A DNA stretch of 64,000 bases from Mobula hypostoma. Lineage: Eukaryota. Below are positions 50,598-54,897 of the stretch, one piece after another. Location of the stretch: positions 113,586,001-113,650,000 of the forward strand of contig NC_086107.1 of the NCBI RefSeq assembly GCF_963921235.1, read 5' to 3'. A model generated the notes under the pieces. The model was not told the DNA's origin and did no database searches. It saw only the letters and a program-made list of their open reading frames with translations. The translations under genes were made by a program, and so were the position numbers. Numbering within the stretch: position 1 is the first letter of the stretch; each line of letters starts with the position of its first letter.

Positions 50598-53541
50598 GAA
50601 ACATCGTCTCCACATCCACTCTATCTAGGCCCTTCTGTGATGCATCTGTAAAAATTGATAAGGATTATCTCCATCGGAACTCCAGGCTGCAGTTTGTATC
50701 TTAACCAGAGCAACCCCAGCATGTGCCATCTTCAGGCCAGCTCGGGTTCTGAATAAACCACTCAGGGTCAGCTCAGACCGGTCTCCCGAGAAGGCAACAG
50801 CTATCATAAAGGACCCTCTGGTACGGAGAGTGCTCGCAGGCTGGACCCAGGTGCAGAGGAATGGCAGTCTCCCTCTGTCACGGTGGGCCCTGGCATCGCC
50901 TCAGCCTGGGAGTGGTGGACGACAGGCTCACACCTTACCCCAAGAGCGGAGAAATGGCAGACGACCCACGAAGAGGCAGAAACAAGGGGGTTAGGCACAG
51001 GTACACCAACAGAGCCCCAGACAGATGACTGAGCGACACTGCGAGACAATTCATCCTCTGTAACGCAGTTGGACCCCACTAAAGAGCCAACTAGAGACCT
51101 CTTTAAATAATTATAGAATGAGGAAAGCCCATGCCAGTCACCATTAACTTGACAAGTTTAAACCGAAAGCACAAGGGTTTAATAATTCTGGTTAAGATAA
51201 CAACTAGTAAATATAGGTGCTCTCGAAACCTGGAAGGTTAAAGTTGTACAGCAAGCCCGCGAGGTTCATGACACCCTCACTGTCTAGGACATGCCCTCTT
51301 CTCGTTACTGCAATCAGGGAGGAGGTGCAGGAACCTGCAAACACAGGTCTTCTAGGAAGAGCTTCTTCCCTTTTGCCATCAGATTTCTGAGTGGTCCATG
51401 AACCCAAGAACACTGCCTCACTGCTCTTCCTTTGCACCACTTAGAGTACAGCACTCTGCAGGCCTTTTAATCCCCTCTAAGGTTAACCAAACCCTTCCCT
51501 CGTACGTAGCTATCCGTTTTTCTATCATCGGCTTTTTAAATGTCGTAATGTATCTGCTTCTACCGTCATTTCTGGCAGGACGTTCCAAGCATCCACCACC
51601 GACTGTGGGATAAAAAACTACCTGTGACATTCCCCCCCCCCACCACCATACTTTCCTCCAGTCACCTGAAAATTATGCCCCCTTGTTGATATGGCTCGAC
51701 TGCATCAGCTTCTGGGGATTAGACGCTCCAACTCTCCGGAACACCGATAGCAGGCGAGGTCTCTCCTCTAACTTGTCGCCGTTTTCAGGCACTAGGATTT
51801 TAATATTTAAAGAGCACCTGAAATGAGGTCCAGTGCTCCACTGTCAGCTCACTGTCTCGTATCTTGTTCAGGACCCTGTCTTTGTTTCAGATCTGTATCA
51901 TGTCTCAATTCTAGTCTCAGACACTCCAGCACTTGGCTCCTATCTATCCTCACCTAGATTCTGAACCAGGCTGTCTGACCTCCGAACCTTATGCATGTCC
52001 GGATAACTGGCTGCATATCTCCTTCTGTCCTCTGTTCCCGATTTATACCAGGATTAGGAGGATTGCATTATAAGGAAGATCTAGACAGGCCAGGCTTGTA
52101 GAGTGACAGGGGACATATAAGGTCCTGAGAGTCAACTGTCTAACTGTAGAGAGAATGTTTCTCTGTGTGGGAGAACCTGGAACCATTGATCACTAAATAA
52201 ATATTTATTTCTTTGTTTATTGATTGATTGAGAGAGATACAGCCTGGAATAGGTCCTTCCAGCCCCCGGAGCCGCACGCTCCTAGTTAACCCTGGCCTCG
52301 TCACGGGACAAGTTACAATGACCAATTAACCTCCCAACCGGTACGGCTTTAGATTGTGCGAGAAAACTGGAACACCCAGAAGAAACCCACACAGTTCACG
52401 GGGAGAATGTGCAAACTTTCTTACAAACAACGGTGGGAATTGAACCTCGGTCACTGGTACTGTAAAGTGTTGTGCTAACCACTACGTTACCGTGCCACCC
52501 CAATAGCAAATATATATAAAAATAAAGGGCCACTAATCGAAAACCTGGATGAGAAGAACTTTTTTTAGAGTTATAGAGATATACAACACAGAAAGAGGCT
52601 TTTTGGCCCAACTTGTGCATGCCAGCCAAGATGCCTTCCTGAGCTAGTCCAATTTGCTTGCCCGTATCCTTCGAGACCTTTCCGATCATTTTTCCCTCAG
52701 AGGGTCACAAATGTTTGGAACCCTCTTCCTCAAAGCTGTTTCTTTGAGTATTGTTAAGGTAAAATTAGTGAGTTACTTGAGAGATACAAAGGGGTGAAAG
52801 GTGATCAGGATTAGACAGGGATGTTCAGTTAACTTTGATCCCGTGATCTAATTAAACAGTGAGGCAGGCTTGAGGCCTACCTCTGCTCCTAGTTTTTATA
52901 TTTGTAAATATCTGTGGTCCATACCAATAAATGCCATGGTAGTGTGGCATTTAGCGCGATGCCATCGGAGTTCGGAGTCAGTTCATTTTCCCTGTGACTG
53001 CATGGGTTTCCTCTGGGTGCTCCAGTTTCCTCCCACAATCCAAAGACCTACCGGTTGGTAGGTTAATTGGTCATTGTATATAAAAGTTGCTGGTGGAACG
53101 GAGCAGGCCAGGCAGCATCTCCAGGAAGAGGTACAGTGGATGTTTCAGGCCGAGACCCTTCGTCAGGACTAACTGAAAGAAGAGATAGTAAGAGATTTGA
53201 AAGTGGGAGGGCGAGGGGGAGCCATCCCTCCCCCTCCTGTCTTCTCCTATCATTTCAGATCTCCCCCTCCCCCTCCCACTATTTCGGGGTAACATGAGGG
53301 GGAAGTTCTTCACTCAGAGAGTGGTAGCTGTGTGGAATGAGCTTCCAGCAGAAGTGGTTGAGGAAGGTTCGATGTTGTCATTTAAAGTTAAATTGGATAG
53401 ATATATGGACAGGAAAGGAATGGAGGGTTATGGGCTGAGTGCAGGTCGATGGGACTAGGTGAGAGTAAGAGTTCGGCACGGACTAGAAGGGCTGAGATGG
53501 CCTGTTTCCGTGCTGTAATTGTTATATGGTTATATTAGACT

Positions 53542-53732
53542 GGGGGGTGGTGAGGCCTGGGCCGGACGTCCCGTTCACCCAGGGAAAGTGAACGCACAAT
53601 ACATCGCCTCTCCTTTCCCGGTGTAGTGATCGCCGCATGGTCACCGTCTGGCCTGCTAGGCCTCTCCTACATTACTGTGTCCGTAGCAACACCTTCTCGT
53701 CGGTGCCCCCCGTTTCCACCGAGCTTGCTACG
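53542..53732 (+). ncRNA. Candidate HDV-like self-cleaving ribozyme
   Basis: P1 GGGGGGT / GCCCCCC, P2 CGTAGCAA / TTGCTACG, P3 ACC / GGT, L3 TTCTCGTC and J4/2 CCGA, all in the correct nested order. Confidence 0.65.
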
Positions 53733-54204
53733 TCATGGCGTGACCGAGTGTCCGGCGGTATAACTGGATGGGCAGGCTGGGCTCGTTAGCCTTGGTTGGA
53801 ATTGGCAGCCAGCCTAAGAGAAGGACCGCTCTGAATCCAAATCCGGGCAGGTGGGGCTCGTTAGCCTTGTCAGGCTGCCCACCGCGGAGAAGGACACTCC
53901 GACGTAAATCCTACGACCCGAGGACCTCGTTGTCACCGTCCCAGCTTGCTGGGCTATTGCAGACGAACTCTGGGTGTAAAGGATGGGGCCAGTACCGCGC
54001 ACACTGCACTCCACCTAAAATACCATCGCGCAGGCCGAAGGACACGCCCGCACCTACGACCATCCTCCCCGACACAGCCGCTGAGGCCAGGCCTGCCTGT
54101 CCCGCATTTGCCTCGTCAGCCACCAGCGAGCCTGCAGAAGGCGTGGGCAGCCCCCTTCCTGAATCTTCATTCGCGAAGCCAAGCCATGGTGATGATGATG
54201 ATGA
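53542..54204 (+). mobile_element. CpG-rich non-autonomous RTE-type retroposon with a structured 5' end
   Basis: Two copies of an RTE 5'UTR-like motif (GGCTCGTTAGCCTTG...GGCAGCCAGCCTAAGAGAAGGA..CTCTGAATCCAAA), a (GAT)n 3' tail, and no RT ORF. Confidence 0.65.
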
Positions 54205-54897
54205 GCCTAGGGTTAAATCAGGGGTTGTTGGTGGTGCAGCTCGAAAAGTCAGAAGTGCCTGCTTCATGATGTATCTCTGGGTGAAAAGCAAAGAAAAGGT
54301 AATCATGGTTGTCTCATACACAGACGAAAGAGACAACAAAGAATTCCAGTGATAACAATTAACCTATAAAATCGATTCAAGTAATATGATATCTGCTCCT
54401 GAATACTAAGAAGTTTCTAGAGAAATACTGAAGCAACTGTAACGTAATTACTAGAAAAATCACTGAACATGTGATGATAAAAAAATTCAACAGGCTTAGA
54501 AAAGTTAGGCTACAAGGAAACTATCAGTTCCACACCCCCAAAAAAGCCATCCTGTTTACGTAATTTATACAGAAAGCCTAATGATGGCCATTAACTGCCT
54601 TATCTGGATGGGCTTCGATACTGTCTCGCAATAGTGTAACGCCTTTACCAAAACGTGGAGATTATTCTCATCATAGGTCCCAGGTTCTGCTGTGACACAG
54701 TCCCTCAGGCAAAGTGACATTGTGGGTGCTGATCCTGAAAACCTGAAATAAATTCTGAGAAGCCAGGAAGCATTCAACGTCGGTGGCATCTGTGGGGTGA
54801 ACGTTTCCAGCGAAGACCTTCAAACTGACATCTGAACTCTTTCAGATTCATACAGCCATAGAGTCATGGAGCACAGAGGCTCTTCGGCCCATCTAGT

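What the first reader, a model, noticed from the sequence alone, without database searches (positions are those of the whole stretch)
53542..53732. Candidate HDV-like ribozyme starting at the inferred first base of a non-autonomous RTE-type element
Seen: every HDV-fold element in the right order. P1 is GGGGGGT (53542-48) with GCCCCCC (53705-11). P2 is CGTAGCAA (53682-89) with TTGCTACG (53725-32), 8/8 Watson-Crick. P3 is ACC (53691-93) with GGT (53702-04), closing L3 TTCTCGTC (HDV has UCCUCGCU). G53712 allows a single P1.1 pair, and J4/2 CCGA (53719-22) supplies the putative catalytic C. P4 is reduced to TTTCCA. J1/2 is a ~130-nt self-folding insert: GAGGCCTGG/CTAGGCCTC, GGCCGGACG/CGTCTGGCC, CGTTCAC/GTGAACG. 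Known: RTE and R2 retrotransposons use 5' HDV-like ribozymes. Inference: this short ORF-less element frees its own 5' end by self-cleavage instead of using a Pol III promoter, i.e. a ribozyme-headed SINE-like family with an unusual P4-less, large-J1/2 fold.
Basis: partly seen in the sequence, partly recalled or inferred. Interest (0 to 1): 0.78.

Follow-up and report, generated by a model that had tools for sequence, protein, structure and literature searches.

The report
Self-cutting RNA heading a jumping gene
The first ~190 bases of this short mobile element fold like the hepatitis-delta self-cutting RNA; the element inherited it from a 4.1-kb retrotransposon whose relatives in other animals carry the same device, so it is a new variant of a known trick.

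Summary
Every helix and motif sits at the stated coordinates. A descriptor with these features hits the 128 kb of window (both strands) once, here. It hit 0 of 150 shuffles in full form and 6 of 150 in relaxed form.

53542 is the true element start. Homology began in the 5' G-run in 21 of 29 copies sampled with an internal query. Eight were truncated and none ran upstream.

The element is not an ORF-less SINE. It is an internally deleted copy of a ~4.1 kb LINE encoding an apurinic-type endonuclease (APE) and reverse transcriptase (RT). It keeps the LINE's first ~530 nt and last ~130 nt.

Relatives of that LINE in metagenome contigs carry the same fold at the same place. This was seen in 11 loci. 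P1, P2 and P3 sequences differ but still pair, L3 and J4/2 are conserved, and J1/2 inserts run about 40-250 nt. Three of them also lack P4.

Most likely this is a real HDV-like 5' self-cleaving ribozyme. Cleavage is untested, Rfam sees nothing and no RNA run was listed.

Ribozyme-headed RTE, R2 and L1Tc elements, their deleted derivatives, large J1/2 domains and P4-less minimal forms are all in print. This is therefore a new variant of a known kind.

The parts
53542..53548 (+). P1 5' strand (GGGGGGT). Predicted cleavage is 5' of G53542, which is the first base of the element.
   Evidence: Most family copies have C at position 7 (Watson-Crick); the window has T, a CpG decay that gives G.U. Copy 5' ends lie in this G-run.
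53549..53681 (+). J1/2 insert, a self-folding domain. The window copy has lost 20 nt that most copies carry.
   Evidence: MFE fold. Alignment. Relatives have J1/2 of about 40-250 nt.
53682..53689 (+). P2 5' strand (CGTAGCAA).
   Evidence: It has a unique complement within 230 nt downstream.
53691..53704 (+). P3 (ACC/GGT) closing L3 TTCTCGTC.
   Evidence: The L3 pattern T-Y-C-N-C-G is shared with 11 relatives. P3 occurs as ACC/GGT, GCC/GGC, GGC/GCC and GCG/CGC across the clade.
53705..53711 (+). P1 3' strand (GCCCCCC).
53712..53712 (+). G that can pair with C53696 of L3, giving a single P1.1 pair. The next position would be U-U.
   Evidence: The same G-C plus U-U arrangement is described for the CPEB3 ribozyme (PMC4836649 passage).
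53713..53719 (+). 7-nt linker in place of the P4 hairpin.
   Evidence: It is conserved in family copies. Linkers of 12 nt stand between P1 and P2 in L054, L087 and L090.
53720..53724 (+). J4/2 (CGAGC). C53720, or C53719, is the candidate catalytic cytosine.
   Evidence: CGA directly precedes the P2 3' strand in L054 and L087.
53725..53732 (+). P2 3' strand (TTGCTACG).
53735..53743 (+). ATG 2 nt after the ribozyme. It is in frame with the LINE's APE-RT frame in family copies. The window copy has TGA at codon 3.
53752..53770 (+). Small hairpin CCGG-CGGTATAA-CTGG followed by the second in-frame ATG (53768).
   Evidence: The homologous hairpin CTGG-CGCTATAA-CCAG occurs in L054 and L087.
53542..54073 (+). 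5' block shared with the full-length ~4.1 kb LINE.
54074..54189 (+). 3' block, equal to the last ~115 nt of the LINE. It holds the end of the ORF2 frame (stop TGA 54160-62, TAA in other copies) and about 27 nt of 3' UTR.
54190..54204 (+). (TGA)n tail.

Best explanation
53542-53732 is an HDV-like (double-pseudoknot) self-cleaving ribozyme at the 5' end of an old, dead, internally deleted copy of an RTE-like LINE.

Inferred mechanism:
1. The element has no promoter of its own and is transcribed from outside.
2. The ribozyme folds co-transcriptionally and cuts 5' of G53542. This sheds host sequence and leaves an RNA that begins with the ribozyme.
3. The LINE's reverse transcriptase recognises the ~40-nt 3' UTR with its (TGA)n tail and copies the RNA to its end. 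New copies therefore start at G1.
4. The deleted form keeps only these two ends and is copied in trans.

The ribozyme has a large structured J1/2 domain, a one-pair P1.1 and no P4.

Shown here: the fold, its position at the element start, its inheritance from the LINE, and conservation with compensatory changes in relatives.
Inferred: cleavage itself, the catalytic C, the lack of a promoter, and any role in translation start.
For: (1) All fold elements are at the stated coordinates. The full descriptor hit 0 of 150 shuffles and the relaxed one 6 of 150.

(2) Element start. With the 5' query, homology in 27 of 29 other loci begins at 53539-53550 and upstream flanks are unrelated. With an internal query, 21 of 29 loci start at -5 to +8 of the G-run, 8 are truncated at +17 to +241, and 0 extend further upstream. 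Six of these 29 are re-fetches of the first set, L121 repeats L120, and L123 shows the same upstream flank as L120.

(3) The same 5' end heads ~4.1 kb copies with APE and RVT_1 domains. ORF2 runs to within about 35 nt of the tail.

(4) Relatives at 38-93% aa identity:
- The strict descriptor hits 4 of 80 loci, all on the coding strand, and 0 on the other strand in 345,837 nt.
- Cores of the form P3-L3-P3-P1 strand-G lie about 600-830 nt upstream of the ORF2 match in 10 of 52 loci. L090 is added by a relaxed search.
- That relaxed search gave 15 cores with P2 (7 also with a P1 5' strand) against 1 (0) on the reverse-complement control.
- Helices differ in sequence but pair. P1 examples are GGGGTAT/ATACCCC, GTGGCGT/ACGCCAC and GTGGTGT/ACACCAT. 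P2 is 6-10 bp and different in each. P3 occurs as four pair sets.

(5) L054, L087 and L090 share the P4-less build, each with its own P2 (6-8 bp), and L054 and L090 with their own P1 (no P1 5' strand was found in L087).

(6) In L090 the P1 G-run directly follows a (TGTA)n flank.

(7) Literature:
- RTE and baggins elements carry HDV-like ribozymes and lack promoters (PMC6765202 passage).
- Structured J1/2 domains speed cleavage (PMC4908430).
- P4-less minimal forms exist in genomes and are reported with a metal dependency like the full-length ribozyme (PMC6326823 passage).
Against: - No cleavage data and no RNA data.
- Rfam gives no HDV-family hit for the window or for 10 relatives.
- The fold has no P4, only one P1.1 pair, a G1-C rather than a G.U first pair, and a 5-nt J4/2.
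- Fold z-scores are ordinary: -2.2 for the window and -1.5 for L015. The L015 MFE picks P2, not P1.
- Most relatives show no core with my descriptors: 42 of 52 loci. L036, the locus best matched to the query alignment, has an unrelated first ~360 nt.
- The descriptor was written after seeing the case.
- Copies of a retrotransposon decay neutrally, so within-family conservation says little. Only 14 of 30 copies keep P2 and P3 without a mismatch.
- A 5' pile-up would also follow from a fixed transcription start.
Confidence: 0.75

Rival explanations
1. Relic ribozyme. The fold is homologous to the ribozymes of related LINEs, but loss of P4 and of one P1.1 pair has inactivated it. Under this reading the family's 5' ends are set by a transcription start in or near the G-run, as with the dual promoter and ribozyme of L1Tc.
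For: There is no P4 and only one P1.1 pair. There is no Rfam hit. The number of 5' G residues varies from 4 to 8 among copies. L1Tc combines an internal promoter and a ribozyme in the same 77 nt (PMC3383444).
Against: The P4-less build recurs in three other lineages, each with a fresh, fully paired P2 (and a paired P1 in L054 and L090). That is not expected of a dead structure. The family reached at least 298-429 first-look candidates. P4-less minimal ribozymes exist in genomes and behave like the full-length ribozyme in metal dependency (PMC6326823 passage).
Confidence: 0.17
2. Chance look-alike. Under this reading the region is an ordinary structured 5' UTR or protein-binding leader of the LINE, with no relation to HDV-like ribozymes.
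For: Helices of this size alone are common: 113 hits in the window. Fold z-scores are ordinary. The descriptor was post hoc.
Against: The full descriptor hit 0 of 150 shuffles. The same topology, with L3 and J4/2 motifs and compensatory helices, appears in 11 relatives on the coding strand only.
Confidence: 0.06
3. Pol III SINE with a tRNA-, 5S- or 7SL-derived head.
For: The element is short (~660 nt), abundant and non-autonomous.
Against: ARAGORN finds no tRNA-like gene in 53300-54400. Rfam finds no 7SL, 5S or tRNA match. The head is identical to that of the 4.1 kb LINE.
Confidence: 0.02

Closest known systems
HDV-like ribozymes at the 5' ends of RTE and baggins LINEs (drz-Agam-2 type; Ruminski et al. 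2011, seen only as a citation; review PMC6765202 passages; PMC4908430 part 1)
   Same: A double-pseudoknot ribozyme forms the first bases of a promoterless LINE. The J1/2 domain is large and structured. P1 is 6-7 bp.
   Different: There is no P4 hairpin. P2 is 8 bp, not the 12 bp of Agam-2. The host and LINE subfamily differ. No Rfam model detects it. Whether P4-less RTE ribozymes are already described in Ruminski 2011 could not be checked, because the paper is not held.
R2 SIDEs, 'Short Internally Deleted Elements' (Eickbush and Eickbush 2012, PMC3414825, abstract read)
   Same: A non-autonomous element made by joining the 5' ribozyme and the 3' end of its LINE through internal deletion, and copied by the LINE's machinery.
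   Different: The parent is an RTE-like, dispersed LINE, not the rDNA-specific R2. The deleted form is the majority here (22 of 29 sampled copies), whereas SIDEs are called rare.
L1Tc/NARTc and ingi/RIME of trypanosomes (PMC3383444 passages)
   Same: The autonomous LINE and its short derivative share the same 5' HDV-like ribozyme, which defines nucleotide +1.
   Different: L1TcRz is 77 nt with a P4 and doubles as an internal promoter. Promoter activity was not tested here.
Minimal HDV-like ribozymes lacking P4 (Riccitelli et al. 2014, known here only through a passage in PMC6326823 and reference lists)
   Same: The P4 stem is absent and the core is retained.
   Different: Those are about 50-60 nt RNAs from microbiome sequences. 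This one sits in an animal LINE and carries a ~130-150 nt J1/2 domain.
Mammalian CPEB3 ribozyme (PMC4836649 passages)
   Same: P1.1 consists of one G-C pair plus a U-U. The U and G of L3 that form the metal-binding wobble are present.
   Different: CPEB3 is intronic, single-copy and has a P4. Its first pair is G.U, whereas here it is G-C.

Membership tests
HDV-like self-cleaving ribozymes | Nested double-pseudoknot strand order: P1, P2, P3, L3, P3', P1', (P1.1), P4, J4/2, P2' | tested here: met
   Every strand is in order. P4 is treated in its own row.
HDV-like self-cleaving ribozymes | P1 of 6-7 bp beginning at the cleavage-site nucleotide, and P2 of about 7 bp (PMC4908430) | tested here: met
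   P1 is 7 bp with one G.U (7 Watson-Crick pairs where position 7 is C, as in most copies). P2 is 8 of 8.
HDV-like self-cleaving ribozymes | 3-bp P3 closing a 7-8 nt L3 that carries the conserved U, C and G, plus a P1.1 pair | tested here: met
   ACC/GGT closes TTCTCGTC, and G53712 can pair with C53696. There is only one P1.1 pair, as in CPEB3.
HDV-like self-cleaving ribozymes | Cytosine in J4/2 just before the P2 3' strand | tested here: met
   CCGAGC at 53719-24. CGA occurs at the same place in L054 and L087. Which C is catalytic is inferred.
HDV-like self-cleaving ribozymes | P4 hairpin between P1.1 and J4/2 | tested here: not met
   Only a 7-nt linker is present. P4 is absent from published minimal members, so it is not strictly defining.
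HDV-like self-cleaving ribozymes | Helices supported by compensatory change in relatives | tested here: met
   Eleven relatives have different, paired P1, P2 and P3 on the coding strand only. This rests on a script tabulation. A formal test on a structural alignment was not done, because the MAFFT columns were out of register.
HDV-like self-cleaving ribozymes | Match to a curated covariance model (Rfam HDV-type families) | tested here: not met
   There were 0 hits in the window at gathering score and none at E <= 10 around the site. There were 0 hits at E <= 1 in 10 relatives. The long J1/2 inserts are the likely cause, which is an inference.
HDV-like self-cleaving ribozymes | Site-specific self-cleavage giving a 5'-OH product | not testable with these tools
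   No RNA holder was listed. A bench assay is needed.
RTE-clade LINE (the parent element) | APE and RT in one ORF, a very short 3' UTR and a short-repeat tail rather than poly(A) | tested here: met
   Pfam finds Exo_endo_phos and RVT_1. The ORF2 match ends about 6-35 nt from the end of homology. The tail is (TGA)n. The features of the clade are taken from recall, with Tay et al. 2010 seen only as a reference-list title in PMC6765202.
RTE-clade LINE (the parent element) | RT groups with named RTE references in a phylogeny | not tested
   No named reference LINE set is available. The homologues found carry no clade names.
SIDE-type non-autonomous element | 5' ribozyme block and 3' end of the same LINE joined by internal deletion | tested here: met
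   The window shares 53542-54073 and 54074-54204 with the two ends of the 4.1 kb copies.
Pol III SINE | tRNA-, 7SL- or 5S-derived head | tested here: not met

The most novel reading that the evidence does not exclude
A patchily distributed clade of RTE-like LINEs may carry its own lineage of HDV-like ribozymes that current covariance models cannot see. Close ORF2 relatives occur in amphioxus, teleosts, crustaceans and a sea urchin. In this lineage a roughly 40-250 nt structured J1/2 domain is the rule. In one or more sublineages P4 has been lost altogether, and the J1/2 'pinch' would take over the stabilising role. In this genome the ribozyme would also serve as the uncapped leader for an ORF that starts 2 nt after P2.
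Probability: 0.3. Interest if true: 0.55.

Novelty: new variant of a known kind. Interest (0 to 1): 0.38.

Why it matters
It adds a large-genome animal host and a whole LINE clade to the retrotransposons that free their 5' ends with an HDV-like ribozyme. It also shows that Rfam models miss them.

The P4-less core with a big J1/2 domain is a natural test case for two questions. One is what P4 and the J1/2 'pinch' contribute to catalysis. The other is how short deleted elements parasitise a ribozyme-headed LINE.

It does not open a new principle.

Tried and rejected
- Rfam at gathering score on the window, at E <= 10 around the site and at E <= 1 on 10 relatives gave no HDV-type hit. The only hit was a chance snoRNA match (E 4.6).
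- RNA evidence: the look-up of sequencing runs listed no RNA holder. All rows were contigs with small shares, so read laying was not run and nothing is claimed about expression.
- The count of structure pairs was not run. The MAFFT alignment of the four P4-less cores (A2) put the pairs out of register, so helices were tabulated by script instead.
- A motif search for more members of the P4-less subgroup through the TATAAC hairpin found only L054 and L087.
- I suspected that the upstream repeat (53282-53535) is joined to the element start in several copies. The long L007 alignment was not confirmed by a separate BLAST, so the idea was dropped.
- I suspected that the big ORF starts right after the ribozyme throughout the clade. 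This is not so: in relatives it starts 300-700 nt later. It holds only for this family and partly for L036.
- Ruminski et al. 2011 and the 2011 RNA Biology review are not held.
- A search for P4-less HDV-like ribozymes in retrotransposons found none in the held library.
- Earlier notes of this scan had nothing on this genome or sequence. Notes on other HDV-like finds did not change my reading.

Full report
**What is in the sequence**

The window lies in a 3.48-Gb, 200-contig genome.
- P1: GGGGGGT 53542-48 with GCCCCCC 53705-11.
- P2: CGTAGCAA 53682-89 with TTGCTACG 53725-32.
- P3: ACC 53691-93 with GGT 53702-04, closing L3 TTCTCGTC.
- G53712 follows P1.
- A 7-nt linker stands where P4 would be.
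- CCGAGC precedes the P2 3' strand.

The unconstrained MFE fold of 53542-53732 contains P1, the long J1/2 hairpin and P3. Its z-score is only -2.2.

**Is it more than chance?**

- Helices of this size alone are common: 113 hits in the window with P2 >= 6 bp.
- With the L3 pattern T[CT]CNCG added, there is one hit on both strands, this one.
- That descriptor gave 11 hits in 150 locally dinucleotide-shuffled windows, and 6 shuffles had at least one.
- The full descriptor also requires G after P1 and CGA before P2'. It gave 0 of 150.
- I wrote the descriptor after seeing the case, so the independent evidence below matters more.

**The element and its ends**

A search of the window's own genome with 53542-53740 found 298 first-look candidates, of which 40 were scored. 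In 27 of 29 other loci fetched, homology to the window starts at 53539-53550. The upstream flanks are unrelated. The exceptions are L018 (53533, AT-rich chance similarity) and L007 (a weak extension that a separate BLAST did not confirm).

An internal query (53770-53990; 429 candidates, 29 other loci fetched) avoids that bias.
- 21 of 29 copies start at -5 to +8 of the 5' G-run.
- 8 are truncated at +17 to +241.
- None runs further upstream.
- Six of these 29 are re-fetches of the first set, L121 repeats L120, and L123 shows the same upstream flank as L120.

The G-run has 4-8 G. Position 7 is C in most copies, which makes P1 fully Watson-Crick. The window's T is a CpG decay.

**What the element is**

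Nine of the first 29 loci share only 53542-54073 with the window and then continue differently. Five of them, fetched at length, are ~4.1 kb elements about 90% alike. They carry Pfam Exo_endo_phos and RVT_1.

A 1059-aa homologue maps from element position ~920 to within about 35 nt of the end of homology. The tail is (TGA)n. The frame that starts at the ATG 2 nt after P2 runs into the endonuclease domain with two stops in the decayed copy L033. It is 45% similar at protein level to L036.

The parent is therefore an RTE-like LINE in anatomy. A phylogeny was not possible.

The window copy joins the LINE's first ~530 nt to its last ~130 nt. Among the 29 copies sampled with the internal query, 22 are such deleted forms and 7 run on into the LINE body. 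The window copy:
- is about 15% diverged from the others;
- has lost 20 nt of J1/2;
- has a stop at codon 3;
- keeps P1, P2 and P3 without a mismatch.

In the family, 14 of 30 copies keep P2 and P3 without a mismatch. No tRNA-like head is present.

**Comparative test**

ORF2 homologues of about 1,050 aa occur in amphioxus (71%), medaka (69%), a carp, a mantis shrimp, a sea urchin and many unnamed contigs. A scan of metagenome contigs returned 80 loci.

| Test | Coding strand | Control |
|---|---|---|
| Strict descriptor, 80 loci, 345,837 nt | 4 loci (L042, L054, L081, L098) | 0 on the other strand |
| Core search, P3-L3-P3-P1 strand-G | 10 of 52 loci, each about 600-830 nt upstream of the ORF2 match | none |
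| Relaxed search, 43 loci | 15 cores with P2, 7 also with a P1 5' strand; adds L090 | 1 and 0 on the reverse complement |

The spacing of about 600-830 nt compares with about 760 nt in this genome's family. Some of the 15 relaxed hits are probably spurious (L073, L074, L078).

The helices differ in sequence but still pair:

| Helix | Examples |
|---|---|
| P1 | GGGGTAT/ATACCCC (L042), GTGGCGT/ACGCCAC (L054), GTGGTGT/ACACCAT (L098), G6/C6 (L085) |
| P2 | 6-10 bp, different in every lineage |
| P3 | ACC/GGT, GCC/GGC, GGC/GCC, GCG/CGC |

L3 keeps T-Y-C-N-C-G. J1/2 is about 40 nt in L090 and 100-250 nt elsewhere.

Most of these relatives have a P4 hairpin. L054, L087 and L090 do not. They have 12 nt between P1 and P2, against 13 nt here. 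L054 and L087 also share with this family a small hairpin after P2 with a TATAA loop.

Weak points:
- 42 of 52 loci showed no core.
- No P1 5' strand was found for L087. It has a mismatch in L064 and L094.
- L036, the locus best matched to the query alignment, has an unrelated first ~360 nt.
- Rfam finds nothing in 10 of these loci.

**How it most likely works**

The LINE and its deleted derivative are probably transcribed from outside. The ribozyme cuts 5' of G1. The RNA, now starting with the ribozyme, is reverse-transcribed from its 3' UTR and tail, so copies begin at G1.

This is the published model for RTE, baggins, R2 and L1Tc elements:
- PMC6765202, passages.
- PMC3383444, passages.
- PMC3414825, abstract.

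Other published points bear on the fold:
- Large structured J1/2 domains are known and speed cleavage (PMC4908430, part 1).
- P4-less minimal ribozymes are known (passage in PMC6326823).
- The one-pair-plus-U-U P1.1 is that of CPEB3 (PMC4836649, passage).

Cleavage, the catalytic C and any role in translation start are inferences.

**Novelty**

The kind is known. What I did not find in the held library is a P4-less HDV-like ribozyme in a retrotransposon. However, Ruminski 2011 and Riccitelli 2014 could not be read. Earlier notes of this scan concern other HDV-like finds on other DNA. None concerns this family.

Noticed in passing
window 53282-53535: The 3' part of another abundant interspersed repeat ends a few bases before the element's G1. 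A 93% identical copy lies about 220 nt upstream of the element in L025. Related pieces occur in L008, L117 and L129.
   Followed up: partly
window 53752-53770; L054 191-209; L087 271-284: A small hairpin (CCGG/CTGG here, CTGG/CCAG in the relatives) has a conserved CG(G/C)TATAA loop. It lies just after the ribozyme and directly before an ATG in the window and in L054. It is possibly a further RNA signal.
   Followed up: partly
proteins P0009, P0019, P0026, P0051, P0052: ORF2 relatives at 64-71% aa identity occur in amphioxus, medaka, a carp, a mantis shrimp and a sea urchin. This patchy spread hints at horizontal transfer of the LINE clade.
   Followed up: no
L016 (G000:C9:199329397-199329607), P2 pair equivalent to 53684/53730: One copy has a double T-A to G-C change that keeps the P2 pair. 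It is the only transversion-type compensatory change seen within the family.
   Followed up: no
L120, L121, L123 (G000:C9 at 185.23, 185.27 and 189.00 Mb): Three copies show the same upstream flank (L120 and L121 identical over the 120-nt junction chunk tested). They reflect segmental duplication, not separate insertions.
   Followed up: no
L036 1-360: L036 is the best-matching locus (93% aa identity to the query alignment's first protein, P0001). It shares the region from ~357 onward with this family but has an unrelated first ~360 nt with no HDV-like core by my descriptors. This is either a swapped 5' module or an assembly artefact.
   Followed up: partly
5' flanks of L016, L017, L030 (own genome) and L090, L081 (relatives): Sequences just upstream of element starts are often AT-rich or microsatellite-like: (TA)n, T-runs, (TTGTTA)n, (TGTA)n and GT-rich. 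This suggests a target preference.
   Followed up: no
L025 around the deletion junction; L013, L014 junctions: Deleted copies differ by tens of bases at the internal junction. L025 keeps about 90 nt more of the LINE 3' region. More than one deletion derivative therefore exists.
   Followed up: no
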